In this document: in pieces, positions 2,668 through 14,109 of the stretch | Position numbering within the stretch: the stretch's first letter is position 1 | Layout: each line of letters starts with the position of its first letter | Assembly: GCA_001001485.1 (NCBI GenBank) | Contig: LCKO01000004.1 | Location: 4,761 to 68,760 of the forward strand | DNA from: Candidatus Collierbacteria bacterium GW2011_GWB2_45_17 | Lineage (GTDB): Bacteria > Patescibacteriota > Microgenomatia > UBA1400 > MFAQ01 | DNA: 64,000 bases | Direction: 5' to 3' | Program-made: the position numbers and the translations under genes | The notes under the pieces: model-generated | Seen by the model: only the letters and a program-made list of their open reading frames with translations | Databases searched by the model: none | What the model was told of the DNA's origin: nothing

Positions 2668-3138
2668 TTACTCTACGGTGACAAGACCGAAATGACCGGC
2701 GTTGAGATGGTTGTGGTATTTGTAAGTTCCGGGTTTGGGGAAGGAAAAAGATTTGGATTCGTTGGTCTTAGCAAGACCCAGATTAAGGGCCGGATAGTCA
2801 GTATGAGCCGGGTGAGGACTACTGGCAACGTCCATTTTAGCCTCGCCTTGGTTGATCCAGATAACGGTATCGCCGGCTTTGATAATTAAATTTTGGGGTT
2901 TGAAACCATTGGCGTCGTATGTCACAGTAAAATTATCTGTTATCAAGGCAGGGGGAGTGACTATCGTAGTAGGAGTTGGAGAAATAAAGGGATAAGTATT
3001 AAGCTCGGGAGCGTAAACGCTTCCGTTTTTAAAAAAGACATAATAAACAGCTATATACGCAAGGCCGCCGATAAGAAGGTAGATAACAACCCATCGCCAC
3101 ATAGGGTGCTTACCATAACCTGTTTTTGAATCATCCAT
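2668..3138 (-). CDS. Membrane-anchored cupredoxin-like (EfeO-type) domain protein
   Basis: N-terminal TM helix. C-terminal beta-rich domain with His-rich motifs (SSPHPAHTDYP, TYKYHNHLNAGHFG) resembles Cys-less cupredoxin-like domains; weak. Confidence 0.45.
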   Translation of the reverse strand: MDDSKTGYGKHPMWRWVVIYLLIGGLAYIAVYYVFFKNGSVYAPELNTYPFISPTPTTIVTPPALITDNFTVTYDANGFKPQNLIIKAGDTVIWINQGEAKMDVASSPHPAHTDYPALNLGLAKTNESKSFSFPKPGTYKYHNHLNAGHFGLVTVE

Positions 3139-3301
3139 GATTCAGTTTATATAATTTTGAGTCTAATTGTCAAATTTCTTGCTTCGGATGGCTAGTTTTG
3201 GTAAAATGAGCACGTCCGTTAATATTCCCCTGCCCGCCTCGCGGCGGATAAATAGCCCAGAAGGTAGACCTGCCTGCCGTGAGGCAGGACGCCTCCAATA
3301 T

Positions 3302-3547
3302 ATGACTTGGTATGCTTATGTGTTATTAAGTTTAAAGAATGGTAATCTCTACAAGGGGATTACGAATGATTTGGAGAGAAGGATTTCGGAGCACAATTTG
3401 GGGAAAAATCGATCAACCAAAATAAATGCACCTTGGAAAATTGTATATTTTGAAAAATTTATGACTCGAGATGAGGCAAGAAACAGGGAAAAGTTTCTCA
3501 AGTCAGGCAAGGGTCGTGAATTTTTAAAATTTATTATTCCCCTGTAG
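3302..3547 (+). CDS. GIY-YIG nuclease family protein (small stand-alone GIY-YIG domain)
   Basis: YAYVLLSLKNGNLYKGITNDLERRISEHNLGKNRSTKINAPWKIVYFEKFMTRDEARNREKFLKS: GIY...YIG, R, E and N catalytic pattern. Start at ATG 3302; the ORF-track start 3167 is an over-extension. Its stop codon lies inside the 5' acceptor stem of the following tRNA. Confidence 0.75.
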   Translation: MTWYAYVLLSLKNGNLYKGITNDLERRISEHNLGKNRSTKINAPWKIVYFEKFMTRDEARNREKFLKSGKGREFLKFIIPL

Positions 3548-3609
3548 CTCAACGGTAGAGCAACATCCTGTTAAGATGAAGGTTCGTGGTTCGAATCCAC
3601 GCGGGGGAG
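3538..3609 (+). tRNA. tRNA-Asn (anticodon GUU), CCA not encoded
   Basis: Hand-folded cloverleaf: acceptor TCCCCTG/CGGGGGA, D-arm GCTC-AACGGTA-GAGC, anticodon loop CTGTTAA (GTT), T-arm CGTGG-TTCGAAT-CCACG, discriminator G. Confidence 0.85.
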
Positions 3610-3684
3610 CTAAAAGGCCTTAATCTGACCAAAAATGCAGTTATTATGGTAATTAAACAAATGTTAGTCATATTGGTAAACGGA

Positions 3685-4410
3685 ATGAAAAAGATGGTGG
3701 TGATTGTTCTAGTTGTACTACTTTTTCTTGCTTCACCAAATAATGTTAGCGCCAATGGTGGTGTTGTAGTAGAGCCTTCCCAGAATGAAATTGAAAAATT
3801 GAACAATAAAATTGATGCATTAATTTTGAGCAATAATGCTAATGGAATTTCGGGAAATATAATTGGTTTAGCTAATACTCAAATGCAATTTTTAACGTTT
3901 ATCCTTGCTGTGGTTGGTATAGGGATTCCTGTTTTTGCGTTCTTTTTTAGAAAAGAGATTCAAATAATAAAAGATAGAGCAATGTTGAGTGTAGTGAACA
4001 TGGAAAATGAGGTTAAAAAAATAAAGTTATCTGAGAAGGACATCGCCAAAAGAAAAAATGATATTGATAGACTTTATAGTGATTTTGAAAAGAGATTAAC
4101 GGATATTGACGAAAAAATGAAAAAACTGAAATCCACAGAGGGGGGGCCAAAAGAAAAGAATAGATTAGCAGAATTAGAGCAAGAGATAATGGGATTAAAG
4201 AGGAAGCTTTCTCAGGGCATTCAGCCTTATACTTTGAACGTTTCAAGTTATCCAGGCACCGCTAGTGGATATGTTGGACCTCTATCTACTACAACATCCA
4301 CATCAATGGGTAGTTTTGGTGCAATAAGTCCAAGTTCTGCTACAACAACTACGGTTGAGCCCTTTTATCCCAGCCCCTCTGCATCACCATCCCCTGAACC
4401 AGAAGATTAG
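3685..4410 (+). CDS. Secreted/membrane hypothetical protein: signal peptide, one internal TM helix, coiled coil, Ser/Thr/Pro-rich C-terminal tail
   Basis: MKKMVVIVLVVLLFLASPNNVSA signal-like N-terminus; second hydrophobic helix FLTFILAVVGIGIPVFAFFF; K/E-rich heptads; C-terminal STTTSTSMGS...PSPSASPSPEPED. Start at 3685; the ORF-track start 3586 lies inside the tRNA. Confidence 0.5.
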   Translation: MKKMVVIVLVVLLFLASPNNVSANGGVVVEPSQNEIEKLNNKIDALILSNNANGISGNIIGLANTQMQFLTFILAVVGIGIPVFAFFFRKEIQIIKDRAMLSVVNMENEVKKIKLSEKDIAKRKNDIDRLYSDFEKRLTDIDEKMKKLKSTEGGPKEKNRLAELEQEIMGLKRKLSQGIQPYTLNVSSYPGTASGYVGPLSTTTSTSMGSFGAISPSSATTTTVEPFYPSPSASPSPEPED

Positions 4411-4489
4411 TTCACCTTGAGGGAAAATGAACACAACTTAATTGTTTGATTTCCTTTAGTCTTTCTCTCACTTGTTTTACCCACACAGG

Positions 4490-4556
4490 ATTTTGAAAAA
4501 CCTTGATAACTTGTGACAAACTTTCGGCCAGAGCAAAACTAGGGACTGGGAACCAG
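4490..4556. repeat. Copy A of a roughly 65-bp imperfect direct repeat; copy B is at 6852..6918
   Basis: Roughly 75-80% identity, with the shared core ttcggYcagagcaaaactagggacWgggaRc. Reverse-strand translations are conserved at protein level (PVPSFALAESLSQVIKVFQNPVWV vs PVPSFALTEAIERCIKAFQNPIWS). Confidence 0.7.
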
Positions 4557-4610
4557 ATGATACCTAATATGTCTATGGTGTAATATTGTTTAGATGCGGA
4601 TAAATCGTAA

Positions 4611-4988
4611 ATGAATACTAACGAAAAAGAAAAAAGGTGCTTAAATGGTCAGAAGATAAGAAATTTTTTAAGAAAATATAGGTTTATTGCCATTGTATTA
4701 GGGTGGGCTCTTTCCATGGGGGCGGGGTATGTCTTTATTGAAGTATTCACGGTGAGCGATGTTGTGGGTACAACCTTTTCTTGGATTACATTTATATTGT
4801 ATTTTATATGGATATCAAACGGTATCGGCGGATTAAAGAAAATTCTTGGTCTGACCGTAAGCGTAACAAAATGGTTATTAGCGATCTCTATTGTTTTTTT
4901 GGTTATTAGTTTGGCTGTTGGATGGGTAAATACTATATCCCCAACCACTATTATTATTATTCTATTATTACTAATATTAGCCCGATAA
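4611..4988 (+). CDS. Hypothetical integral membrane protein (4 predicted TM helices)
   Basis: Hydrophobic segments FIAIVLGWALSMGAGYVFIEVF, FSWITFILYFIWISNGIGG, LLAISIVFLVISLAVGWV, IIIILLLLILA; AT-rich codon usage. Confidence 0.4.
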   Translation: MNTNEKEKRCLNGQKIRNFLRKYRFIAIVLGWALSMGAGYVFIEVFTVSDVVGTTFSWITFILYFIWISNGIGGLKKILGLTVSVTKWLLAISIVFLVISLAVGWVNTISPTTIIIILLLLILAR

Positions 4989-5078
4989 CGACACTTCTTG
5001 TTGGTCGTTGTTAATTGGGGTTTGAGTAAAGAGATGGGGGTCAAACGACTTAGAATGCTTGAAATAGAAAACTGAAAG

Positions 5079-5462
5079 ATGATTACATTGACGGCCAGTG
5101 AGTTTATTGCGAAGAAGAACGATGATTTTAATATGAACCATGAAGTTGGGGTCAAGGATATTGGTCGTAAGGGGCGGTACTATTATCATCGAGAGGCCTG
5201 GACTTTTAGAATACAGAGTAATTTACCCAAAAAAGTCTTTGTGATTGAGAGACTGAGGAAGGAAAGCACAGAAGGCGAGTTAACGTACGGCAATTGGAAG
5301 AAGGGAGACATTGAATACCGTATTGGCTATTACATTGTTGGAAGAATAGGCAAGGCCAGTGGAAGGTGGGTTTGGGGTCAGTTTTGTCCCTTAATTCCTT
5401 CAAATGATTTAGTAGCCTTACTTGATCAAGCCAAGAAAGAAGGCGTCATTGTTGAGTCTTGA
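5079..5462 (+). CDS. Hypothetical cytoplasmic protein
   Basis: Intact 127-aa ORF in the AT-rich island; no recognised motif. Confidence 0.35.
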   Translation: MITLTASEFIAKKNDDFNMNHEVGVKDIGRKGRYYYHREAWTFRIQSNLPKKVFVIERLRKESTEGELTYGNWKKGDIEYRIGYYIVGRIGKASGRWVWGQFCPLIPSNDLVALLDQAKKEGVIVES

Positions 5463-5712
5463 GTGTTTATATAAGAGGTGAACAAATGAAGACTCTTAAA
5501 CAGGTATCTTTACACAATCGCATTTATCGCCTGCTTTAGAGTTATTTAAAGGTTTTGTATCGCATCTTTATTGATCAGTTTTTATAGGTACTTTACTAAT
5601 CAATTAGGGGACTCTTGGCCACAGGAGATATCCTAGGTTTAGAAAGTGAAAAAGAAACACCGAGCCAATAATTACATTAACTAGAAGATTCGACTTTATA
5701 ATGTCAACCAAA

Positions 5713-6249
5713 TTACGTTTTTATTTTAAGAACTTTATGCAAAAAATCACCAGGACCGATAACTTTTAAATTACCTATTTTAATTTTTTTTAAATCTCCC
5801 ATATCTTTAGTTACCAAATAATTTGCCCCCAACATACCTGAACCATCAAACAACAAGTTGTCCGTACCCTTATTAGTTTGTACTGGTTTATCAACAAACA
5901 TTCTATTAATATAGCCTTTATCTGTAACCATTTTTATTAGTGGTCCAATATGTAAACTATCAATAATTCCTTCTTTGGCTTTGTGCTGTAACACACGATC
6001 GTATTCTTTTAATAAATCGGCGTTTATTATTAGATGAAACATATCAATTTTAAGCGCTTCAATTATTTGATATGGGGCACTATCAATAAATTTTCTTTTT
6101 GATGCTATCAAGGCAGACAACACAATACCAGTGTCTAAAACAACACGAGCTTTATTATCGTTTGGTGGTGTTGGTATGGCTTTTCTGGGAACAGTTAACG
6201 ATTTTCTTTTTAAGGCTGGCAATCTTTCTGTCGCAGGCAATCTAGGCAT
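5713..6249 (-). CDS. PIN-domain putative toxin (TIGR00305-like PIN family) with basic/Pro-rich N-terminal extension
   Basis: VVLDTGIVLSALIAS (PIN N-terminal acidic motif) and C-terminal LVTKDMGDL resemble PIN-family toxin components; N-terminal 35 aa rich in R/K/P. Confidence 0.65.
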   Translation of the reverse strand: MPRLPATERLPALKRKSLTVPRKAIPTPPNDNKARVVLDTGIVLSALIASKRKFIDSAPYQIIEALKIDMFHLIINADLLKEYDRVLQHKAKEGIIDSLHIGPLIKMVTDKGYINRMFVDKPVQTNKGTDNLLFDGSGMLGANYLVTKDMGDLKKIKIGNLKVIGPGDFLHKVLKIKT

Positions 6250-6279
6250 AAGTTTTTGTTCTAATTCGATATAAACAAG

Positions 6280-6732
6280 TTATTTTGTTTGAGTAAGCGC
6301 CGCCTCATTGTAAATAGTTACAATATTATTAATATCAATTGTCATGCTAGGGTTTTTCGTGAGTATTTCAATTACTATTTTCAAAACAGTCAGATAGATC
6401 AATATTTTGTTCGGAGAATCAGGAATCCACTTTTTAAACTTCGAAAATTGGGGAGTTTGTTTAAGCTTTGATAAATCATTCTTATTTTTATTTTTTTCTA
6501 AAGCATCAAATAAACTTTGTGCAGTTTGTAGTGGATCAGGTGAATTTTCCAGTATTTTAATTACACCGTCTATCGTACCCGTAAGATTTCCATTAGGCAC
6601 ATTTTCCATAGATCCACAGTGAGGACATTGTGACTTGTTATTTGAAAAGAAAGCTGACGAACCCACACCCAATTCAATTCCCGACGAAAAAACTCTATGA
6701 CATCGTTCACATTGCATTAAAAGTAATGGCAT
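6280..6732 (-). CDS. Zinc-ribbon protein (CxxC...CxxC) encoded immediately upstream of the PIN gene; candidate cognate antitoxin/partner
   Basis: MQCERCHRVFSSG...CPHCGS zinc ribbon at the N-terminus; same strand, 30-nt gap to the PIN gene. Confidence 0.45.
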   Translation of the reverse strand: MPLLLMQCERCHRVFSSGIELGVGSSAFFSNNKSQCPHCGSMENVPNGNLTGTIDGVIKILENSPDPLQTAQSLFDALEKNKNKNDLSKLKQTPQFSKFKKWIPDSPNKILIYLTVLKIVIEILTKNPSMTIDINNIVTIYNEAALTQTK

Positions 6733-6851
6733 ATGGTGTATTTTACTATGAACAAATTTTTTATTGATTAAAACCTAAACTGTATCCGCTCGTGTTAATA
6801 TTTTGATTTGGTTCAATCTTTGTCGTGCTTGTTCTGACCATATTGGATTCT

Positions 6852-6918
6852 GGAAAGCCTTGATACAACGTTCAATCGCTTCGGTCAGAGCAAAACTAGG
6901 GACAGGGAGCTTTGGTTT
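6852..6918. repeat. Copy B of the roughly 65-bp imperfect direct repeat (see 4490..4556)
   Basis: Aligned by eye: attctggaaagccttgatacaacgttcaatcgcttcggtcagagcaaaactagggacagggagc. Confidence 0.7.
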
Positions 6919-6923
6919 GGGAG

Positions 6924-7454
6924 TCAGATGCAATTTACTTCTCTCAGTATTTCTTTGCTTATTTCGTCAAGAGGTCTATTTGCATTGACGAAAATTGCAT
7001 TTCTTTTTTTCATTTCACCTTCCCACCAATCTTTCCATCCTAATACAACATCTCTACTTTCTTGGGTATTACCAATATCACTTGTTCCCTCTCGGTTTTT
7101 AAGTCTTTCGTTTAGGGTTTGAGAGTTAAGAAGTAGGACAAATTTCTTGTCAAAAAAAGGGAGAATATCGTTCATGTTTGATGCGATTCCACTATAGAAA
7201 GCTAAATTTGATTTTTGAGATTTTAACAGTAGTTCAAGTTTTTCGGTGTTACAAATCCATTCTGCGTTTTTAACATGTTCAGGGTTGGCATTGTCGTAAT
7301 TTTCAAAAATATTTTTGGATTCTTTGTGGTACATTTCAAACATTCCTTTGATGTTTTCAATGTCGCTGGACTCATACCCCATTTTTTTAAGATGTTTGCC
7401 CACAGATGTTTTACCTGTTCCAGATACTCCTGTTATTAAGATCCTTTCTTTCAT
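6924..7454 (-). CDS. P-loop NTPase, small nucleoside/nucleotide-kinase-like ATP-binding protein
   Basis: MKERILITGVSGTGKTSVGKHL Walker A right at the N-terminus (AAA_18/AAA_33-like kinase fold). Start taken at ATG 7454; the ORF-track start 7694 adds 80 aa of low-complexity over-extension. Confidence 0.55.
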   Translation of the reverse strand: MKERILITGVSGTGKTSVGKHLKKMGYESSDIENIKGMFEMYHKESKNIFENYDNANPEHVKNAEWICNTEKLELLLKSQKSNLAFYSGIASNMNDILPFFDKKFVLLLNSQTLNERLKNREGTSDIGNTQESRDVVLGWKDWWEGEMKKRNAIFVNANRPLDEISKEILREVNCI

Positions 7455-7470
7455 TCGAATAATTATATCA

Positions 7471-7486
7471 AGGTTCGAAAATCGAC
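7471..7486. repeat. 16-nt repeat aggttcgaaaatcgac (second copy at 11054..11069); resembles a degenerate tRNA T-arm/3' end
   Basis: Exact 16-mer shared. Compare the tRNA-Asn 3' half aaggttcgtggttcgaatccacgc. Confidence 0.5.
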
Positions 7487-7527
7487 GAACTTGACAAAGG
7501 TAGATTTTAAATATAAAAATTGAGTTA

Positions 7528-8061
7528 ATGAAAAACCAACAAGGATTTGGAATTATTATTCTACTTCTCATAGTTACCGGAATTATGGTGTTCGGTACCT
7601 TAGCTGCGGGAGCTGCGGTGCTTCTAGGAAAAGCACCTGAATGTCCCACCCAAGGATCTTCCTCGGCCAGAAGTGAAAAAGAAATAGGAGACACGTTAGA
7701 ACAAGGATCGGTAAATATTACTGACGGCGAAGCGACAACGCTGGCACAAGGGTATATTGGGGGAAAAGTTGACGAGGCACGGGTCTGTTTTACCGAGGGA
7801 CTGGGTCATGTTTCGGGTAAAATGAATCTTGGTTCAGTCAGTCCATCATTTTATGTTTCAGCAGGAGTTGATCTGTCCGGATCGGTTCCTAAAGCTACTA
7901 ATTTAAGTATTCAACTAGGTTCGCTTCCTAACATTTCTTTTATTTCCGGTTTGGCAATGGATAAAATAAATTCATTAATTTCTGAAAATTTGTCTAAGTT
8001 TGAATTAAAGCAAAAATATACGGCTTCTTTTTCAAATGGATCACTTACCATAAGTAAATAG
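7528..8061 (+). CDS. Membrane-anchored secreted hypothetical protein
   Basis: N-terminal TM/signal anchor FGIIILLLIVTGIMVFGTLAAGAAVLLG followed by a Ser/Gly-rich extracytoplasmic domain. Confidence 0.45.
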   Translation: MKNQQGFGIIILLLIVTGIMVFGTLAAGAAVLLGKAPECPTQGSSSARSEKEIGDTLEQGSVNITDGEATTLAQGYIGGKVDEARVCFTEGLGHVSGKMNLGSVSPSFYVSAGVDLSGSVPKATNLSIQLGSLPNISFISGLAMDKINSLISENLSKFELKQKYTASFSNGSLTISK

Positions 8062-8099
8062 TTACTCAATACGCCACATGTAAATGATACTATTAGACA

Positions 8100-8849
8100 A
8101 TGACGGATTCAAAAGTAAAAACAGTAGATAAAAAAATTGATGTTTACGAAAGACAAGCTGTTCTTTATGATGAAATATATGCGTCTCAAGGCAAAGACTA
8201 TCAGGAAGAGGCTCGTCAAATACACAATGTTATAGATAGCCACAAACGTTCAGATGGATCGCAGCTTTTGGATGTTGGTTGTGGAACGGGTGGTCATTTT
8301 CCCTTCTTGTCTAAATGGTATAAAGTAGAAGGTTTGGATTTAGATGGGCATATGTTGGCGGTTGCCAAAAGACGATTTCCAGATATTTCTTTCCATCAGG
8401 GAGATATGGCCAATTTCAATTTAGAAAATCAATTTGATGCTGTAACTTGTTTGTTTAGCGCTATCGGCTATACAAAAAAAGCTGAAAGTATGCAGAAGTC
8501 TATCGTTAATATGGCCAAACATGTAAACCCAGGAGGAGTATTGGTAGTAGAGCCTTGGTTTTCTCCAGATCAGTGGACTGTGGGTAGACCATCTGCGGTT
8601 TTTGTTGATAAACCAGACCTAAAAATTGCCAGAGTAAATATTAGCGAACAAAGAGATAATGTTTCTGTAATTAATTTTCATATTTTAGTTGCCACTCCAG
8701 GAAAAGTTGAAGAATTTACTGAACTCCACGAGTTAGGATTGTTTACCAAAGAACAATATCTTCGAGGTTTTGAAATGGCCGGGTTAAAAGTAGAACACGA
8801 CCCAAAAGGCATTACTGGTAGAGGATTGTATATTGGTTTGAAAAGTTAA
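8100..8849 (+). CDS. Class I SAM-dependent methyltransferase (TylM1/Methyltransf_25-like)
   Basis: Motif I LLDVGCGTGGHFPFL, motif II/post-I LDLDGHMLAVAKRRF, FDAVTCLFSAIGY. Confidence 0.8.
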   Translation: MTDSKVKTVDKKIDVYERQAVLYDEIYASQGKDYQEEARQIHNVIDSHKRSDGSQLLDVGCGTGGHFPFLSKWYKVEGLDLDGHMLAVAKRRFPDISFHQGDMANFNLENQFDAVTCLFSAIGYTKKAESMQKSIVNMAKHVNPGGVLVVEPWFSPDQWTVGRPSAVFVDKPDLKIARVNISEQRDNVSVINFHILVATPGKVEEFTELHELGLFTKEQYLRGFEMAGLKVEHDPKGITGRGLYIGLKS

Positions 8850-9059
8850 CAATACTTTTATTGTTTGCTAATACACTAAGGGTAATTTGAGATCAGTATT
8901 TAGCTATTTGAAGCTAAGCTGTGCCACTCCAGGCACGAAAGTGCCACACGAGCCATCACAACCGTAATACTGCTATTGCTCTTGAGAACCCCGCTGGAAT
9001 TGTTTAATCTATAAGTAGATAGTCATTACAAACGGTGACTTACTATGATATGAAACAAA

Positions 9060-9074
9060 CCACCTTCGAGGTGG
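9060..9074. promoter_or_regulatory. Palindromic motif CCACCTtCGAGGTGG, copy 1 of 4, 87 nt upstream of the 9161 CDS
   Basis: Inverted repeat CCACCTC/GAGGTGG; extended shared context caaaccaccttcgaggtgggataggggtgggg with copy 2. Confidence 0.6.
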
Positions 9075-9160
9075 GATAGGGGTGGGGTATTAGAGAAAAA
9101 AAGTTTGAAAATAGTTCGGTCTACTCACTACAGGTCGACCCAACCGGCGGGCAGGGTTTT

Positions 9161-9862
9161 TTGGGATGTTATGATTTATTTATGGGAAAGTTCGATTGTG
9201 CTCAAAAACAAAAAGTCGTCCTTAAGTGGATGAAGTGGGGACTGGTCCTCTTTGTAATAGCGGTATTCGCGATGTATGGATATTTTGACGGATACCTCTC
9301 CCGAAGGGTTGTTTTGTCAGAGCCTTCTTTGGTGACAACTGAAACGACAGCCGAAGTTTGTTACGAAAAATCGATGAATATTGAGTGTTTGGAAGGGTTT
9401 GGGTGTACGCGAGTTGAGGCTTTTTGTAACTGTATGGGAGGATCGAACGAGTTGGTAGAAGACTATGGAGCTTGCGTAATTGATGGGGATGAGTATACGG
9501 GAATATCCTTTCAAGAGCTGGAGCAGGGTTGGTATTGGGGAGTTCCTGATTACAAAAAGCCTGGTACGCCCAGTAATTGGGTTTTTAAAAACGATGGGAC
9601 TAGAAGTGAGGGTTGGTTCAGACCAGACCCGACCGAAAGCTCCGATTATATTCTTGAAGCCTCTGAGGGTTCTTGTGACGACAATGCACAGTGTCAATGG
9701 GCGGGAGAGGGTTGTGGTGGTGGACATGGAATGTGCACCAACAATCCGGAAAAGTATCAGGATGTAATAACCACTTGTGATATTAACGAAAACTTTCCGG
9801 CAAATCGTGGTTATTCGTGCGGGTGTGTGGTAACTCTTGGTAGGTGTGGCTGGAAGAGATGA
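9161..9862 (+). CDS. Cysteine-rich membrane-anchored/secreted hypothetical protein
   Basis: TM helix WGLVLFVIAVFAMYGYF, then a domain with at least 16 Cys (CYEKSMNIECLEGFGCTRVEAFCNCMGG ... CGCVVTLGRCGW). Confidence 0.45.
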   Translation: MGCYDLFMGKFDCAQKQKVVLKWMKWGLVLFVIAVFAMYGYFDGYLSRRVVLSEPSLVTTETTAEVCYEKSMNIECLEGFGCTRVEAFCNCMGGSNELVEDYGACVIDGDEYTGISFQELEQGWYWGVPDYKKPGTPSNWVFKNDGTRSEGWFRPDPTESSDYILEASEGSCDDNAQCQWAGEGCGGGHGMCTNNPEKYQDVITTCDINENFPANRGYSCGCVVTLGRCGWKR

Positions 9863-10034
9863 AACGGTATGAAAATTAGGGGTAGAGTAAAAGTAGCGAA
9901 GATGAAAACAAATCTTGATTTCCTGGCTGTTTATTTTGCGGCATCTCTTGTGGTGACTGTTGTCTCCCCGTTTTGGAGAAAAATGAGAAGGTTAAATGGT
10001 TAGAAATCGATTCACTTCTTTGGTTGTATACAAA

Positions 10035-10049
10035 CCACCTCCGAGGTGG
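10035..10049. promoter_or_regulatory. Palindromic motif CCACCTCCGAGGTGG, copy 2, 47 nt upstream of the 10096 CDS
   Basis: Exact 15-mer; a possible -35-like ttgtat sits immediately upstream. Confidence 0.6.
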
Positions 10050-10095
10050 GATAGGGGTAGGATACGCTTCCAGTGTGTCCTGCTAAGATATCTTT

Positions 10096-11028
10096 ATGGA
10101 TTTTGATAAACACAGAAATGCTCAGGAACTGAATTTGGGTGAAGTATCCAACTTTCTGGAAAATAATGGGTTTGTGGAAGTTAATCTCAACCAACAATGG
10201 AGACATATCACCGGTAGCGTGTTTAAAAATGGCACAAAACAATTCTTCAAATTAGCCTCAACCGAAGGTGTTGCCGAAAGAACGGAAAACGAGTTCGCAT
10301 GGAACAAATTGATAAACAACCGGCCGAAACTAAAACTACCAGTTTCGGTACCAAAGATTTATGAGTCAGGTAAATACAACGGCTTGTTTTGGTTTACCTG
10401 TGAATTTGTAGAAGGCACTCCGCTAGCTCAAGAATCTCAAAGTGGTGAAACGAAAAAACTTGAAAATAATCTATCAAAAATAGCGTTGACGGCAAAGATA
10501 ATTTTGGAATTCAAGTCGGATAAACACCTTCCAAATGATGAGAGAAAAAATGATGAGAAAGAAGATCCAAAAACGGTATTCTTGGACAGGATAAAGCATT
10601 GGATGGGTCAGTTTGATAATAACGTTGACGACCTATATGATTTCATTGAAAAACGGATTGAATATGGACTAAAAGCTCCCCAACATGGTGATTTCGTCCC
10701 CTGGCATATTTTTATCACGAACGAAAACAAACTTTTTCTAATTGATGGGGAACATTCTAGGATTGCGGGATTTAAATTTTACGATATCGCATATTTCTAC
10801 CATAGAGTTTATACAAAACTGAAAAGACCAGACATTGCCAACAAATTTCTGGAAGAATTTAATAACATTTATCAATTCAGTAAAGCAGACAAAGAATGTC
10901 TTGGATTAATTCTTGCCCAAAGAGTTATCGGTGGTTATTTTGACTCAAGTAAATGTGGCGAAAAAAATGTCTGCCTCCATGATGAACTAAAAAGAAAGAT
11001 TCTTGAGGGTAAAATTACTATTGGCTAA
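10096..11028 (+). CDS. Phosphotransferase-family (APH/choline-kinase-like) protein-kinase-fold protein
   Basis: HGDFVPWHIFITNENKLFLIDGEHSRIAGFKFYDIAYFY matches the APH catalytic-loop HGD.hp.N... and the ...lIDwE.. activation segment. Confidence 0.55.
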   Translation: MDFDKHRNAQELNLGEVSNFLENNGFVEVNLNQQWRHITGSVFKNGTKQFFKLASTEGVAERTENEFAWNKLINNRPKLKLPVSVPKIYESGKYNGLFWFTCEFVEGTPLAQESQSGETKKLENNLSKIALTAKIILEFKSDKHLPNDERKNDEKEDPKTVFLDRIKHWMGQFDNNVDDLYDFIEKRIEYGLKAPQHGDFVPWHIFITNENKLFLIDGEHSRIAGFKFYDIAYFYHRVYTKLKRPDIANKFLEEFNNIYQFSKADKECLGLILAQRVIGGYFDSSKCGEKNVCLHDELKRKILEGKITIG

Positions 11029-11053
11029 TTTTTTGATTGAAAAGGTTGAGGAA

Positions 11054-11094
11054 AGGTTCGAAAATCGACCCAACCACATCCACCTCCGAGGTGG
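11054..11094. promoter_or_regulatory. Composite repeat: aggttcgaaaatcgac + cccaacc + CCACCTCCGAGGTGG (palindrome copy 3), 37 nt upstream of the 11131 CDS
   Basis: Shares the 16-mer with 7471 and tcgacccaacc with 9135-9145; palindrome at 11080-11094. Confidence 0.6.
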
Positions 11095-11130
11095 GACAGT
11101 GTATTTTTAGTAAGATAAAGGTGGAATGTT

Positions 11131-11922
11131 ATGACACATAATAACAAAAGGCTCCCTGGCCTGTTGGCTCCTTTGATAATTCTTCTGATGTTTGGTGGTA
11201 TCTATGCTATTAGTAATCTCAACAAAGAGGGGGAGGAGGAAACTAAACAAATTAAGAACAGCGATATCAGCTATATTCCTTTTGGCGACTCTTTTACCAT
11301 AGGTTTGGGGGTGGCAGAACCTCATCGCTGGCCAAATATGATGGTAGAGAATTTTGCCAAGGAGGATATAAGTATTAAAATCCTTGAGAATCCTGCTGTA
11401 TCCGGCTATACCGTGAGGGACATGATTAATTTTGAACTGCCGATATTGGAAACCTTAAGGCCTGATTTTGTCACAGTGTTTATCGGCACAAACGACAGTT
11501 TTGTTCAAAAAGATGTTGTGGTTTTTGAAAAAGATTACAAAGAACTGCTTGATAAAATCCAAAAGTTACTACCGGACCCAAAAAGTATTGTGCTGATCAC
11601 AATCCCTGATTATTCAAAGTTTCCAGCTCTTAAACACTACCGAAGAATAAATTATTCAGAGTCTATCACCTCTTACAATGAGGTAATCAGGCAAGAATCT
11701 GTTGATCGAGATCTGATTTTGGCGGACATTTATCCAGTAAGCCAAAAAATGACTGACGAACAGGACTTTATACCGGATGGGCTTCATCCATCTGGGGCAG
11801 GGTATGTGAAGTGGGAAAGAGTGATATATCCGAAGGTGAGAGAGCTATTGCTCAAATCACCTCCGAGGTGGAATACTTTTGTGATGAAGTCTGTCCAGAC
11901 TGAAACCATCTTTTTTGGCTAA
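11131..11922 (+). CDS. SGNH/GDSL hydrolase-type esterase with N-terminal membrane anchor
   Basis: GDSFT (block I Ser), FIGTNDS (block III), DGLHPSGAGY (block V DxxH); N-terminal TM. Palindrome copy 4 (11857-11871) lies in its last 20 codons. Confidence 0.8.
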   Translation: MTHNNKRLPGLLAPLIILLMFGGIYAISNLNKEGEEETKQIKNSDISYIPFGDSFTIGLGVAEPHRWPNMMVENFAKEDISIKILENPAVSGYTVRDMINFELPILETLRPDFVTVFIGTNDSFVQKDVVVFEKDYKELLDKIQKLLPDPKSIVLITIPDYSKFPALKHYRRINYSESITSYNEVIRQESVDRDLILADIYPVSQKMTDEQDFIPDGLHPSGAGYVKWERVIYPKVRELLLKSPPRWNTFVMKSVQTETIFFG

Positions 11923-12688
11923 TATTTGCGAAGATTTGCATAGATATGGTAGAATATACATAGATATGACAAATAGCCTTATTTCGATCAGTAACATCGC
12001 CAAACAACTCGGTGTTTCAATAGATACCCTCAGGAGATGGGATAAAACCCATCGACTTCCCTCGACCAGAATTGGCCCACGGGGTCATCGCTATTATAGA
12101 CAAGCTGATATTGACCTCTTTTTACGAAATGATATCTACTTGGCCAGGCAGTGGGCTATGTCTACGGTAGGATCAACTCCACCATCTGAAGTATATTGCC
12201 AAACAAGAGATGTATTTCAGGTGAGGCTAGAAAGACTCCAGGGGCAACTCCAACGTGTCGTTCCCGAGTCAACAATGTCATTGTTGTGTGCAATCGCGGG
12301 TGAAATCGGGAATAACTCTTTTGATCACAACCTGGGTAATTGGCCAGATGTAACAGGAATATATTTCTCATTCGATTTGAGAAACGGGTACATTGTATTA
12401 GCTGACCGAGGTTTGGGAATATTAACAACCCTTAAACGGGCACTTCCCGAACTAAAAGATACGGACGAGGCGTTAAAAATAGCTTTTACAGAAACAATAT
12501 CTGGTAGGCGTCCTGAGGTTAGGGGAAACGGTTTGAAGTTTGTTAGGCAAGTTGTAATTGATAACCCATTCACACTCATGTTTCAAACAGGGGATGTATA
12601 TCTAAATCTAAAACAAAATGACAGGGATGTTATTATTTCTCATACGGACGGAAATATAAGAGGATGTTTGGCTATAATAAATTTTTAA
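11915..12688 (+). CDS. Excisionase/MerR-type HTH (HTH_17) fused to a GHKL (HATPase_c) ATPase domain, RsbW/anti-sigma-kinase-like
   Basis: HTH: ISISNIAKQLGVSIDTLRRWDKTHRLPSTRIGPRGHRYYRQADIDLFL. GHKL N-box EIGNNSFDH, G1 DRGLGI, G2 GNGLKFV. Alternative start at ATG 11966. Confidence 0.6.
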   Translation: MANICEDLHRYGRIYIDMTNSLISISNIAKQLGVSIDTLRRWDKTHRLPSTRIGPRGHRYYRQADIDLFLRNDIYLARQWAMSTVGSTPPSEVYCQTRDVFQVRLERLQGQLQRVVPESTMSLLCAIAGEIGNNSFDHNLGNWPDVTGIYFSFDLRNGYIVLADRGLGILTTLKRALPELKDTDEALKIAFTETISGRRPEVRGNGLKFVRQVVIDNPFTLMFQTGDVYLNLKQNDRDVIISHTDGNIRGCLAIINF

Positions 12689-12695
12689 AACCAAT

Positions 12696-12974
12696 ATGAT
12701 AATAGAACTAAAAAAATTCGGCACAGCATTGATATCCCGACCATCGGGAAAGGAAGCTTGGTTAGCTTTTCAATCATCTCTTAAGGATGTTTCAGAACAT
12801 GAGGAAGTAATAATTGATTTCACCGGTGTTTTGGTGCTCACACCATCGTGGGCGGATGAGTTCTTAACTCCTTTGAGGACCCGTTTCAAGGATAAAGTGA
12901 AATTAATGGATACAGACAATGCTTCTGTTGAAGCAACCATGACCATACTCGATAAACCGGTGGGGAATGCCTGA
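12696..12974 (+). CDS. DUF4325-type STAS-like domain protein (anti-sigma-antagonist-like fold)
   Basis: About 92 aa; ...ALISRPSGKEAWLAFQSSL...VIIDFTGVLVLTPSWADEFL fits the STAS_2/DUF4325 pattern (i.ldF.gV..lt.SF.dEl); 8 nt downstream of the GHKL gene. Confidence 0.55.
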   Translation: MIIELKKFGTALISRPSGKEAWLAFQSSLKDVSEHEEVIIDFTGVLVLTPSWADEFLTPLRTRFKDKVKLMDTDNASVEATMTILDKPVGNA

Positions 12975-14109
12975 AGGACTAGCCTTTATGAAAATTTATA
13001 ATACTCTCACAAAAAAGATAGACGTTTTTGCGTCTTTAAGGCCCAAAAAAGTATCGATTTATGTTTGTGGTATTACTCCGTATGACACGACCCATCTGGG
13101 TCACGCCTTTACTTATATTAGTTTTGACGCACTCATTAGATACTTAAAGTTTAAAAGATATGAGGTTACATACACTCAAAATGTAACAGACATAAACGAC
13201 AGAGACGGAGACATTTTAGAACGAGCCCGCCAACAAAATATCTCCTGGTCTACCTTGGCTACATTCTGGACAGATAAGTTTTTGGGTGACATGAAAGCTC
13301 TAAATTGGATTCAACCAACCCATTACTTAAAAGCGTCCGAGAATATAGACTCCATGGTTTCTCTGATCCAGAAACTTTTGGCCAAGGGAATTGCTTATAC
13401 CGGTAACAATAGTGTTTATTTGGACGTAACCAAGAAGAACGACTATGGCAAGCTTTCCAGGTTAACTAAAGAGCGGATGCTGAAAAAGGCAAAGGAATTT
13501 GAAGAAGACATAGATAATCCCGACAAAAGAAACCCGCTGGATATAACTTTATGGAAAGCGATCGATTCTAATCAACCCAGTCACATACCATCTTTTGATA
13601 GCCTGTTTGGCAAAGGTAGACCGGGTTGGCACATAGAGTGTTCGGCCATGAGCACCCTTTCTCTGGGGGAACAAATTGATATTCATGGAGGAGGGACGGA
13701 CTTGATTTTTCCTCATCATGAAGCAGAGATCGTTCAAAGCGAGGGCTCAACCGGAAAAATTCCCTTTGCAAAATACTGGGTTCACACCGGTCAAGTTTTC
13801 TACAAAGGAGAAAAGATGAGTAAATCAAAGGGAAATCTGGTGATGGTCTCCAGTCTTTTAGAAAAATACTCCTCGAACGCAGTTCGCTGGCTGATTTTGT
13901 CTCATCATTACAGAAAAAGATGGGAGTTCGATGAAGAGAAACTGGCGCGTGCTCAAAATAAAGTTGAGGTGTTAGAAGGCGACCTTCGTGATGGTAGCGA
14001 AGAAGAGTTTACTAAAATCATGGATAATGATCTCGATACTCCGAAGGCCTTAGAACTATTACTTCGTTCCAAAAACAAACGCGTCTACGACGTTTTAGGT
14101 TTTAGATAG
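12967..14109 (+). CDS. cysS: Cysteinyl-tRNA synthetase (short form lacking extended C-terminal domain)
   Basis: CGITPYDTTHLGHA (HIGH), WHIECSAM and FPHHEAEI (zinc ligands as in E. coli CysRS), KMSKSKGN. Confidence 0.9.
   Translation: MPEGLAFMKIYNTLTKKIDVFASLRPKKVSIYVCGITPYDTTHLGHAFTYISFDALIRYLKFKRYEVTYTQNVTDINDRDGDILERARQQNISWSTLATFWTDKFLGDMKALNWIQPTHYLKASENIDSMVSLIQKLLAKGIAYTGNNSVYLDVTKKNDYGKLSRLTKERMLKKAKEFEEDIDNPDKRNPLDITLWKAIDSNQPSHIPSFDSLFGKGRPGWHIECSAMSTLSLGEQIDIHGGGTDLIFPHHEAEIVQSEGSTGKIPFAKYWVHTGQVFYKGEKMSKSKGNLVMVSSLLEKYSSNAVRWLILSHHYRKRWEFDEEKLARAQNKVEVLEGDLRDGSEEEFTKIMDNDLDTPKALELLLRSKNKRVYDVLGFR

What the first reader, a model, noticed from the sequence alone, without database searches (positions are those of the whole stretch)
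11915..12974. Two-gene module: excisionase/MerR-type HTH fused to a GHKL ATPase, followed by a DUF4325 STAS-like protein
The HTH-GHKL fusion carries an N-box (EIGNNSFDH), G1 (DRGLGI) and G2 (GNGLKFV) but none of the dimerisation or phosphoacceptor domains of histidine kinases. This makes it look like the RsbW/SpoIIAB type of serine-kinase anti-sigma factor, except that here the kinase is fused to a DNA-binding domain. The downstream 92-aa protein matches the STAS-like DUF4325 pattern (VIIDFTGVLVLTPSWADEFL), the fold of anti-sigma-factor antagonists.

To my recollection, DUF4325 proteins are commonly found next to stand-alone GHKL ATP-binding proteins in bacteria, and the function of that pair is uncharacterised. 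The arrangement suggests a partner-switching module in which the STAS protein regulates, or is phosphorylated by, a DNA-binding GHKL protein. It sits at the end of the accessory region and is preceded by the palindromic operator-like motif. Alternatively it could be a defence-type sensor module.
Basis: partly seen in the sequence, partly recalled or inferred. Interest (0 to 1): 0.7.

Follow-up and report, generated by a model that had tools for sequence, protein, structure and literature searches.

The report
DNA-binding kinase-like switch in CPR bacteria
A two-gene operon conserved across the tiny, uncultured CPR/Patescibacteria encodes a DNA-binding protein fused to an anti-sigma-factor-type ATP-binding domain plus a small STAS-like partner, and the DNA word it reads on its own promoter can be deduced from covariation, which gives a rare testable regulator-operator pair for these organisms.

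Summary

The conserved element is 2-5 same-strand direct repeats, TGCATAGATT, spaced 10 or 20-21 bp, overlapping the -35, the spacer and the start site of A's promoter. Repeat positions 3-4 covary with one HTH residue (D with CA, Q with TA, N with GG), so A reads them, probably as BldC-like head-to-tail multimers.

Best reading: an autoregulated partner-switching-like module wired directly to DNA rather than to a sigma factor. Phosphorylation of B (invariant Ser51) is inferred, not shown. The defence and toxin-antitoxin readings are not supported. It is a new variant of a known kind.

The parts
11926..11931 (+). -35 hexamer TTGCGA of the operon promoter. It overlaps repeat R1.
   Evidence: The promoter scan calls TTGCGA, 18 nt, TAGAAT with a TG extension. 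The equivalent TTGCAT sits inside the first repeat in most of the 80 loci.
11927..11936 (+). Operator repeat R1, TGCGAAGATT (degenerate copy)
   Evidence: It lies 10 bp upstream of R2, which is the commonest spacing across loci.
11937..11946 (+). Operator repeat R2, TGCATAGATA, in the promoter spacer
   Evidence: This is the only cluster of three same-strand copies in the 64-kb window.
11947..11955 (+). Extended -10 element TGgTAGAAT
   Evidence: It is conserved as TGnTAnAAT between the repeats in most loci.
11957..11966 (+). Operator repeat R3, TACATAGATA, over the predicted transcription start. It abuts the ATG.
   Evidence: It lies 20 bp after R2; spacings of 20 or 21 bp account for 72 of 140 intervals.
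11966..12688 (+). Gene A: a 240-aa HTH-GHKL protein. It is annotated in public records as 257 aa starting at TTG 11915.
   Evidence: There are 5409 homologues, and the top 120 are 62-100% identical.
11966..12130 (+). MerR/excisionase-type winged HTH, BldC-like (residues 1-55)
12023..12025 (+). Codon of Asp20 in VSI-D-TLRRW, the specificity residue that covaries with operator positions 3-4
   Evidence: D pairs with CA/CC in 62 loci, Q/M with TA/TT in 12, and N/S with GG/AG in 5. Permutation p<=5e-5.
12191..12685 (+). Minimal GHKL (Bergerat-fold) domain of the SpoIIAB/RsbW type (residues 76-240)
12299..12331 (+). N-box GEIGNNSFDHN (E113, N117, H121)
   Evidence: Conserved in 100% of 83 proteins. 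It has the same E-x3-N-x3-H pattern as SEAVTNAIIHGY in PDB SpoIIAB.
12398..12418 (+). G1 box LADRGLG (D147, G149, G151)
   Evidence: Conserved in 100% of 83 proteins. It is the only segment that hhalign aligns to SpoIIAB (RDEGLGI).
12521..12544 (+). G2 box RGNGLKFV, preceded by a flexible ATP-lid (residues 180-187, pLDDT<50)
12696..12974 (+). Gene B: a 92-aa DUF4325 / STAS-like partner
12846..12848 (+). Codon of Ser51 in the invariant motif TPSWADEF, at the N-terminus of helix 50-67. It is the candidate phospho-acceptor.
   Evidence: It is invariant in 36 B homologues and in the partners of the stand-alone and alternative-fusion GHKLs. The helix position comes from the model. The equivalence to SpoIIAA Ser58 is inference.

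Best explanation
Genes A and B form an autoregulated, partner-switching-like transcription module in which the kinase-like component binds DNA itself instead of sequestering a sigma factor.

Step 1 (strongly supported in silico): the N-terminal BldC/MerR-type winged HTH of A reads 10-bp direct repeats (consensus TGCATAGATT) that lie in helical phase over the -35 hexamer, the spacer and the transcription start of the A-B promoter. It most likely binds as a head-to-tail multimer, so that occupancy represses the operon.

Step 2 (supported by fold and invariant motifs): the C-terminal domain is a minimal SpoIIAB/RsbW-type GHKL domain that binds ATP or ADP.

Step 3 (inferred from strict gene linkage and from the SpoIIAB-SpoIIAA, RsbW-RsbV and SiaB-SiaC precedents): the STAS-like protein B docks on the GHKL domain in a nucleotide-dependent way. 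This changes the oligomeric state or geometry of A and hence its occupancy of the repeats.

Step 4 (speculative): A phosphorylates B on the invariant Ser51 at the N-terminus of helix alpha-2, which releases B. A phosphatase encoded elsewhere would reset the switch.

The operator clusters found so far precede A-B itself and, in a few contigs, an orphan B paralogue. The demonstrable output is therefore feedback control of the pair; any wider regulon is unknown.
For: Domains and folds.

Nucleotide-binding residues E113, N117, H121, D147, G149, G151, G187 and G189 are 100% conserved in 83 proteins at 50-100% identity. The motif order matches the PDB SpoIIAB sequence.

Linkage: B lies immediately downstream on the same strand in 83 of 84 loci, usually with a 4-nt overlap, while the flanking genes differ completely. 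The pairing is retained for a stand-alone GHKL (L206) and for a different N-terminal fusion (L207/L208).

Operator:
- The core TG[ACGT][ACG]TAG occurs 2.48 times per 120 nt upstream of A on the forward strand, 0.075 times on the reverse strand, and 0.038 times in the background.
- 74 of 80 loci have at least 2 copies and 52 have at least 3.
- Spacings are 10 bp (44 intervals), 20 bp (48) and 21 bp (24).
- The repeats are interleaved with a sigma-70-type promoter.
- Covariation between HTH residue 20 and repeat positions 3-4 is concordant in essentially all loci, and the N/GG pairing occurs in clades that are about 50% and 64% identical to the query.

Of 120 contigs with an exact tandem operator in metagenomes, 59 have A directly downstream, and others have B alone.
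Against: - No experiment supports any step, and no A-B complex model could be computed because the structure jobs were exhausted.
- Sequence methods do not link the domain to GHKL kinases at all. Foldseek ranks Hsp90, GyrB and topo II ATPases first rather than kinases, so ATPase rather than kinase chemistry remains possible.
- B's best structural matches are MlaB proteins, which are non-phosphorylated STAS partners of an ABC ATPase.
- No PP2C/SpoIIE-type phosphatase and no sigma-factor gene appear in the Pfam-annotated neighbourhoods of the four loci inspected.
- Repression rather than activation is inferred only from the operator position.
- The permutation test for covariation ignores phylogeny. 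The Q/TA group is largely one clade.
Confidence: 0.6

Rival explanations
1. The architecture is the same, but A is not a kinase. The GHKL domain acts as an ATP/ADP (energy-charge) or ligand sensor, and B is a non-phosphorylated STAS partner, as MlaB is for MlaF. B's binding tunes DNA occupancy. Ser51 would be structural or an interface residue.
Against: A Glu-Asn-His N-box of the kinase/anti-sigma type is fully conserved. A Ser is invariant at the canonical STAS phospho-site position, even in divergent partners. Neither observation excludes this rival.
Confidence: 0.25
2. The GHKL domain is a GHL-type ATPase clamp (like MutL, Hsp90, GyrB or MORC). Its ATP-driven dimerisation bridges or compacts DNA bound by the HTH, making A a nucleoid- or promoter-architectural protein with B as a cofactor.
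For: Foldseek's best hits are HtpG/TRAP1, GyrB, ParE and topo II ATPase domains, with probabilities up to 1.0. BldC-type filaments distort DNA (PMC5859096).
Confidence: 0.08
3. A is also a genuine anti-sigma factor. Its GHKL domain sequesters a sigma factor, as SpoIIAB and RsbW do, while the HTH tethers the complex at promoters. B is the anti-anti-sigma.
For: The closest folds are SpoIIAB, RsbW and UsfX, all of which bind sigma factors.
Against: No sigma gene is linked in any inspected locus. In canonical systems the sigma gene is usually in the operon (established knowledge). The stand-alone and fused forms share B but no third conserved gene.
Confidence: 0.05
4. A-B is a toxin-antitoxin, abortive-infection or other defence module: an autoregulated two-gene cassette in variable genomic contexts.
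For: The pair is a small, overlapping, autoregulated cassette whose neighbours vary. A's HTH hits PADLOC mad1 at 5e-11. DUF4325 genes are coupled to PIN/VapC-like genes elsewhere (PMC5499597) and occur in a prophage (PMC7924643). The upstream 3-12 kb has low GC and carries generic mad2-like and PtuA/mad8-like hits.
Against: Both proteins keep 50-80% identity across CPR class-level lineages. Each of the 80 loci kept comes from a different assembly. There is no hit in phage or plasmid collections. B and the GHKL domain hit no PADLOC model. The mad2 and mad8 hits cover only generic SAM-methyltransferase and P-loop cores, and those genes are not conserved next to A-B.
Confidence: 0.04

Closest known systems
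SpoIIAB-SpoIIAA and RsbW-RsbV partner-switching modules (Bacillus); UsfX-RsfB (Mycobacterium)
   Different: Here the kinase-like domain is fused to a DNA-binding HTH. No sigma factor or PP2C gene is linked. The gene order is kinase then STAS, whereas spoIIAA precedes spoIIAB (from my own knowledge). Sequence similarity is undetectable: Pfam HATPase_c and HATPase_c_2 give no hit and hhalign gives probability 0.7%. The partner is DUF4325 rather than canonical STAS (PF01740). The reviewed literature on STAS-only proteins mentions no DNA-binding fusion.
SiaB-SiaC (Pseudomonas aeruginosa) and other non-sigma partner switches (SypE-SypA, BtrW-BtrV)
   Different: In those systems the output is a separate enzyme or regulator. 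Here the output domain (the HTH) is part of the same polypeptide as the GHKL domain.
BldC (Streptomyces), founding member of the BldC family of MerR-like regulators
   Different: BldC is a 68-residue stand-alone wHTH with no effector domain. Its repeat is AATTxxxx(C), not TGCATAGATT. NCBIfam HTH_BldC scores 18.7 bits against a cut-off of 77, so A is not a member by sequence.
Classical MerR-family regulators (MerR, BmrR, CarH, TipA)
   Same: The N-terminal HTH passes the Pfam MerR and MerR_1 thresholds. The best PDB sequence hits are CarH/LitR-type HTHs.
   Different: A has no long antiparallel coiled-coil dimerisation helix. Its operator is direct repeats rather than a palindrome within a 19-20-bp spacer. 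Its effector domain is a GHKL fold.
MADS anti-phage system (MAD1 HTH)
   Same: PADLOC mad1 hits A's HTH at E 5e-11.
   Different: The match covers only the 50-residue HTH. NCBIfam MAD1 scores 12.2 bits against a cut-off of 80. The GHKL domain and B match no mad model, and no MADS gene set is conserved around A-B.

Membership tests
GHKL / Bergerat-fold ATP-binding superfamily | An alpha/beta sandwich fold that superposes on solved GHKL domains | tested here: met
GHKL / Bergerat-fold ATP-binding superfamily | N-box (E...N), G1 (DxGxG) and G2 (GxG) motifs in that order, with a flexible ATP-lid between G1 and G2 | tested here: met
   E113/N117/H121, D147/G149/G151 and G187/G189 are 100% conserved in 83 sequences. 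The lid, residues 180-187, has pLDDT<50.
GHKL / Bergerat-fold ATP-binding superfamily | Recognition by the curated sequence models (Pfam HATPase_c family) | tested here: not met
   There is no hit at E<=1 for A and none for stand-alone or alternative-fusion relatives. The precomputed Pfam lists of 120 homologues show only HTH families.
GHKL / Bergerat-fold ATP-binding superfamily | Binding or hydrolysis of ATP | not testable with these tools
   This needs biochemistry.
SpoIIAB/RsbW-type anti-sigma serine kinases (partner switching) | A stand-alone-size GHKL domain without a DHp or phospho-acceptor domain, closest in structure to SpoIIAB/RsbW | tested here: met
SpoIIAB/RsbW-type anti-sigma serine kinases (partner switching) | A genetically linked STAS-fold antagonist | tested here: met
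   83 of 84 loci. The STAS fold of B is shown.
SpoIIAB/RsbW-type anti-sigma serine kinases (partner switching) | Binds and inhibits a cognate sigma factor, whose gene is usually in the operon | tested here: not met
   No sigma-factor Pfam family appears among the neighbours in L001-L004. Physical binding is not testable here.
SpoIIAB/RsbW-type anti-sigma serine kinases (partner switching) | Phosphorylates the antagonist on a conserved Ser, reset by a PP2C phosphatase | not testable with these tools
   An invariant Ser51 lies at the alpha-2 N-terminus. No PP2C gene is linked. Whole genomes were not searched.
STAS superfamily / Pfam DUF4325 | A Pfam DUF4325 hit above the gathering score | tested here: met
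   29.1 bits against 23 for B, and 38.4 bits for the partner in L206.
STAS superfamily / Pfam DUF4325 | The STAS alpha/beta fold | tested here: met
BldC family (MerR-like wHTH binding direct repeats head-to-tail) | Sequence membership (NCBIfam HTH_BldC) | tested here: not met
   18.7 bits against a cut-off of 77.
BldC family (MerR-like wHTH binding direct repeats head-to-tail) | Target sites are same-orientation direct repeats at about 10-bp phasing in variable number | tested here: met
   Covariation with the HTH is shown. Head-to-tail binding itself is not testable here.
Classical MerR family | An HTH followed by a long coiled-coil dimerisation helix, with a palindromic operator in an over-long promoter spacer | tested here: not met
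   After the HTH there is only a short helix 56-65. The operator is direct repeats, and the promoter spacer is 18 nt.
MADS defence system | A co-located set of mad1-mad8 genes | tested here: not met
   Only an HTH-level mad1 hit. The mad2 and mad8 hits on neighbours cover generic cores only, and those genes are not conserved near A-B.
Type II toxin-antitoxin modules | Mobile, multicopy and patchily distributed, with a toxin fold | tested here: not met
   Conservation is high across CPR. The pair is absent from phage and plasmid collections. No toxin family hit was found. Toxicity itself was not tested.

The most novel reading that the evidence does not exclude
This is a previously unrecognised, CPR-wide regulator in which a partner-switching kinase/STAS pair is wired directly to DNA through a BldC-like domain, with no sigma factor in between. 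It has a simple recognition code at one residue (Asp reads C-A, Gln reads T-A, Asn reads G-G at repeat positions 3-4). It would be the first regulator-operator pair in Patescibacteria whose specificity can be predicted from sequence. It may act as an energy- or host-state switch in these minimal episymbionts, and a related HTH uses the same DNA word for a heme-gene regulon outside the CPR.
Probability: 0.45. Interest if true: 0.8.

Novelty: new variant of a known kind. Interest (0 to 1): 0.68.

Why it matters
CPR/Patescibacteria make up a large share of bacterial diversity, but almost none are cultured, and almost nothing is known about how they regulate genes. This pair keeps 50-80% identity across CPR lineages and is annotated only as 'hypothetical' or 'excisionase/MerR-type' protein. 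The GHKL half is invisible to Pfam, NCBIfam and PADLOC.

The analysis gives four things:
- A structural assignment of the hidden domain to the anti-sigma serine-kinase branch.
- A cognate operator, with its promoter architecture.
- A covariation-derived specificity residue that can be tested with three point mutants and three oligonucleotides.
- An extension of the partner-switching paradigm to a form in which the switch protein itself binds DNA.

It also shows that BldC-type direct-repeat recognition can be coupled to an effector domain.

Tried and rejected
1. HMM and profile detection of the GHKL domain all failed. This covers Pfam, NCBIfam and PADLOC, PDB by phmmer and by profile, and hhalign against SpoIIAB. 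Only structure comparison worked.
2. It sits inside the upstream ORF, is not conserved, and scores only as a weak terminator-like hairpin.
3. Defence or mobile-element origin was rejected.
4. A regulon search gave little. The window has no second operator cluster. The five extra clusters in 80 loci are chance matches inside coding sequence. The metagenome scan for the exact tandem operator returned many non-A contexts, but most are satellite repeats, a repeated AT-rich element, or non-CPR contigs that belong to a different HTH family. Only the orphan-B loci look relevant to this module.
5. Context look-up for stand-alone P0292 was uninformative because the contig ends at the gene.
6. The N-terminus of P0261 looks like a winged helix by eye but has no Pfam support at E<=0.01.
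7. Literature searches for DUF4325, for partner switching in Patescibacteria, for the motif, and for CPR transcription factors found no description of this module.
8. An A-B complex prediction could not be run.
Full report
**1. What is in the sequence**

The window matches Candidatus Collierbacteria GW2011_GWB1_45, where the two proteins are deposited as hypothetical proteins UX08_C0004G0020 and G0021.

Gene A almost certainly starts at ATG 11966 (240 aa) rather than TTG 11915. Homologues align from that Met. In addition, a sigma-70-type promoter lies between the two candidate starts: TTGCGA at 11926, an 18-nt spacer, and TGgTAGAAT ending at 11955.

**2. Domain calls**

- HTH. It passes the Pfam thresholds for MerR_1, MerR and HTH_17.
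- Gene B. It passes the DUF4325 threshold, 29.1 bits against 23.
- GHKL. This is the part of the observation that sequence methods do not support. There is no HATPase_c hit at E<=1 in Pfam, NCBIfam or PADLOC. Neither phmmer nor a 38-sequence profile finds a GHKL chain in the PDB. hhalign against SpoIIAB (sequence checked against PDB 1til_A) gives probability 0.7% and aligns only the G1 box.

The motifs have the kinase/anti-sigma pattern: E113-x3-N117-x3-H121, then D147-x-G-x-G151, then G187-x-G189. Between G1 and G2 lies a low-confidence ATP-lid, residues 180-187. All these residues are 100% conserved in 83 proteins at 50-100% identity.

**3. Distribution and linkage**

- A has 5409 database relatives, and the best 120 are all 62-100% identical and about 244 aa long. 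B has 1246.
- A scan of one genome per GTDB species found 480 encoding loci. All informative organism labels are CPR/Patescibacteria: Microgenomates lineages, Parcubacteria lineages, Gracilibacteria and Peregrinibacteria. A few TPA labels such as 'uncultured Gammaproteobacteria' look unreliable.
- In 84 loci, B follows A immediately on the same strand in 83. The exception is a contig that ends 2 nt after A. The flanking genes share nothing between loci.
- An exhaustive search with the GHKL domain alone finds only 310 clusters (at 50% identity) among 1.84 billion representatives, so this is a compact family.
- The family has three kinds of architecture: an HTH-fused class of about 245 aa, a stand-alone class of about 190-200 aa with the same motifs, and rare other fusions.
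- A stand-alone member (L206) and a member with a different N-terminal domain (L207/L208) are each followed by a DUF4325 gene.
- The motif DF.GV..(T/S)PSW.DE(F/V)L, including Ser51, is invariant in those divergent partners.
- Neither protein has any relative in 50,697 phage or 72,556 plasmid records.

**4. The cis-element**

It lies inside the upstream GDSL-lipase ORF, scores only as a weak terminator-like hairpin, and has no counterpart upstream of A in other genomes.

The conserved element is a set of direct repeats with consensus a-t-t-TGCATAGATT-t.

- 74 of 80 loci have at least two copies within 120 nt of the start codon, and 52 have at least three.
- The restricted core occurs 2.48 times per 120 nt on the coding strand, 0.075 times on the other strand, and 0.038 times in the background.
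- Successive copies are 10 bp (44 intervals), 20 bp (48) or 21 bp (24) apart, which places them on one face of the helix.
- The typical layout is cTTGCATAGATT-TGCATAGATaTGgTAgAAT-a-TGCATAGATT. One repeat contains the -35 hexamer, one fills the spacer up to the extended -10, and one covers the transcription start.
- In the window the three copies are at 11927, 11937 and 11957. They form the only such cluster in 64 kb.

**5. Evidence that A reads the repeats**

Operator variants track one residue at the start of the recognition helix, position X in VSI-X-TLRRW (Asp20 in the window protein):

| Residue X | Repeat core | Loci |
|---|---|---|
| Asp | TG-CA/CC-TAG | 62 |
| Gln or Met | TG-TA/TT-TAG | 12 |
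| Asn | TG-GG/AG-TAG | 4 |
| Ser | TG-AG-TAG | 1 |

There is essentially no exception, and permutation gives p<=5e-5 without phylogenetic correction. The Asn/GG pairing occurs both in a Microgenomates-type protein (L009, 64% identical to the query) and in proteins about 50% identical (L069, L082). It therefore arose, or was maintained, in distant lineages.

**6. Mechanism proposed**

- A binds the phased repeats over its own promoter, probably as a head-to-tail array, and most likely represses the A-B operon. The position argument is inference.
- The GHKL domain binds nucleotide. This rests on the fold and the invariant motifs.
- B docks on the GHKL domain. This rests on obligate linkage across three architectures and on the SpoIIAB-SpoIIAA, RsbW-RsbV and SiaB-SiaC precedents.
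- Docking alters A's oligomerisation on DNA. This is inference.
- Whether A phosphorylates B at Ser51 is open. Ser51 is the invariant serine at the N-terminus of helix 50-67, which is the canonical STAS phospho-site position by my hand alignment to SpoIIAA.
- Points against phosphorylation: B's nearest folds include the non-phosphorylated MlaB, and no PP2C gene is linked.
- The invariant stretch C78-x-TRD-x-FQ-x-RLE at the first GHKL helix is a candidate docking surface. This is speculation.

**7. Regulon**

In 59 of them A lies directly downstream.

Among the rest, a few place the operator and promoter in front of an orphan B paralogue with Arg15 changed to His (L097, L139), or in front of B preceded by remnants of A (L136, L152, L184, L204). 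No other CPR target emerged.

Many remaining hits are unrelated: satellite arrays, a repeated AT-rich element, or GC-richer non-CPR contigs that belong to another HTH family (see the items noticed in passing).

**8. Rivals**

- A sensor-only (non-kinase) version of the same model is the main rival.
- A GHL-type ATPase clamp, a true anti-sigma function, and a toxin-antitoxin or defence role are less likely, for the reasons listed under each rival.
- The MADS lead (PADLOC mad1, 5e-11) is an HTH-only resemblance. The mad2 and mad8 hits on neighbouring genes cover generic SAM-methyltransferase and P-loop cores, and those genes are not conserved beside A-B.

**9. Novelty and verdict**

All the parts are known kinds: a MerR/BldC-like HTH, an RsbW-type GHKL domain, and a STAS-like partner. 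The combination is not described in the searchable literature. By that combination I mean a partner-switching-type pair whose kinase-like subunit is itself the DNA-binding regulator, together with its direct-repeat operator, its specificity residue and its CPR-wide conservation. Annotation pipelines do not see the GHKL half.

I rate it a new variant of a known kind, of solid interest to people working on CPR biology and on bacterial signalling, with clear and inexpensive experiments available.

Noticed in passing
L129 4148-4822; L182 1140-1825 (- strand); L193; L133, L146, L167, L172, L192, L199; L159: In GC-richer, apparently non-CPR metagenome contigs, the same tandem word TGCATAGATTTGCATAGAT precedes several kinds of gene. 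One is a 207-211-aa MerR/HTH_17 protein with an all-helical C-terminal domain instead of a GHKL, which lies next to a HemY-like oxidase. Others are a 388-400-aa radical-SAM protein (six contigs) and a ferrochelatase-like gene. This suggests that a second regulator family with a related HTH uses the same DNA word for a heme-biosynthesis regulon.
   Followed up: partly
L097 488-839; L139 3117-3446; L136, L152, L184, L204: In L097 and L139 the operator and promoter directly precede an orphan B paralogue (Arg15 changed to His) with no A gene. In the other four contigs the operator is followed by only the last codons of A and then B. These are either recurrent deletions of A or assembly artefacts.
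   Followed up: partly
window 12197-12199 (Cys78) and 12665-12667 (Cys234): There are two conserved cysteines in the HTH-fused family: Cys234 in 83 of 83 proteins and Cys78 in 80 of 83. They sit on a short strand before the first GHKL helix and on the last strand. They are not consistently kept in the stand-alone class. They could form a redox or metal switch. The inter-residue distance could not be measured.
   Followed up: partly
window 11915-11968: The public annotation starts gene A at TTG 11915, upstream of its own -10 box. With ATG 11966, the predicted transcript has a leader of only a few nucleotides and is nearly leaderless. Most relatives have a leader of about 20-25 nt that carries repeat R3.
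   Followed up: partly
window 12967-14109: A short (373-380 aa) class-I cysteinyl-tRNA synthetase ORF has a possible ATG at 12967, which overlaps the end of gene B (the called start in the related contig corresponds to 12988). No terminator-like site separates them on the + strand, so cysS may be co-transcribed with A-B in this genome. This adjacency is not seen in the other loci inspected.
   Followed up: no
window about 3000-12000; 6924-7694 (- strand); 8100-8849: The GC content here is lower (0.34-0.38, against 0.43-0.47 elsewhere). The stretch contains PIN_3, methyltransferase, APH-like kinase and GDSL-lipase genes. The 249-aa methyltransferase hits PADLOC mad2 (5.8e-16, SAM core only), and a 255-aa P-loop protein weakly hits PtuA and mad8. 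This could be a variable island upstream of the module.
   Followed up: partly
L087, L101, L135, L158, L177, L181, L198: A conserved AT-rich element, GGTTCGTCC[A/T]TATGAAGAAAGTTATATCATTAAAGATTTA-TGCATAGATTTGCATAGAT-TTTTAGGATCTG, is followed by unrelated sequence in each contig. It looks like the end of a repeated or mobile element from an unidentified organism and is probably unrelated to the CPR module.
   Followed up: no
P0253 (320 aa), P0261 (276 aa; L207 3445-4275): The same GHKL domain occurs in other fusions. P0253 has an N-terminal cytidylyltransferase-like domain (Pfam 47.5 bits). P0261 has an N-terminal region that looks like a winged helix by eye but has no Pfam hit, and it is followed by a 67-aa DUF4325 gene.
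   Followed up: partly
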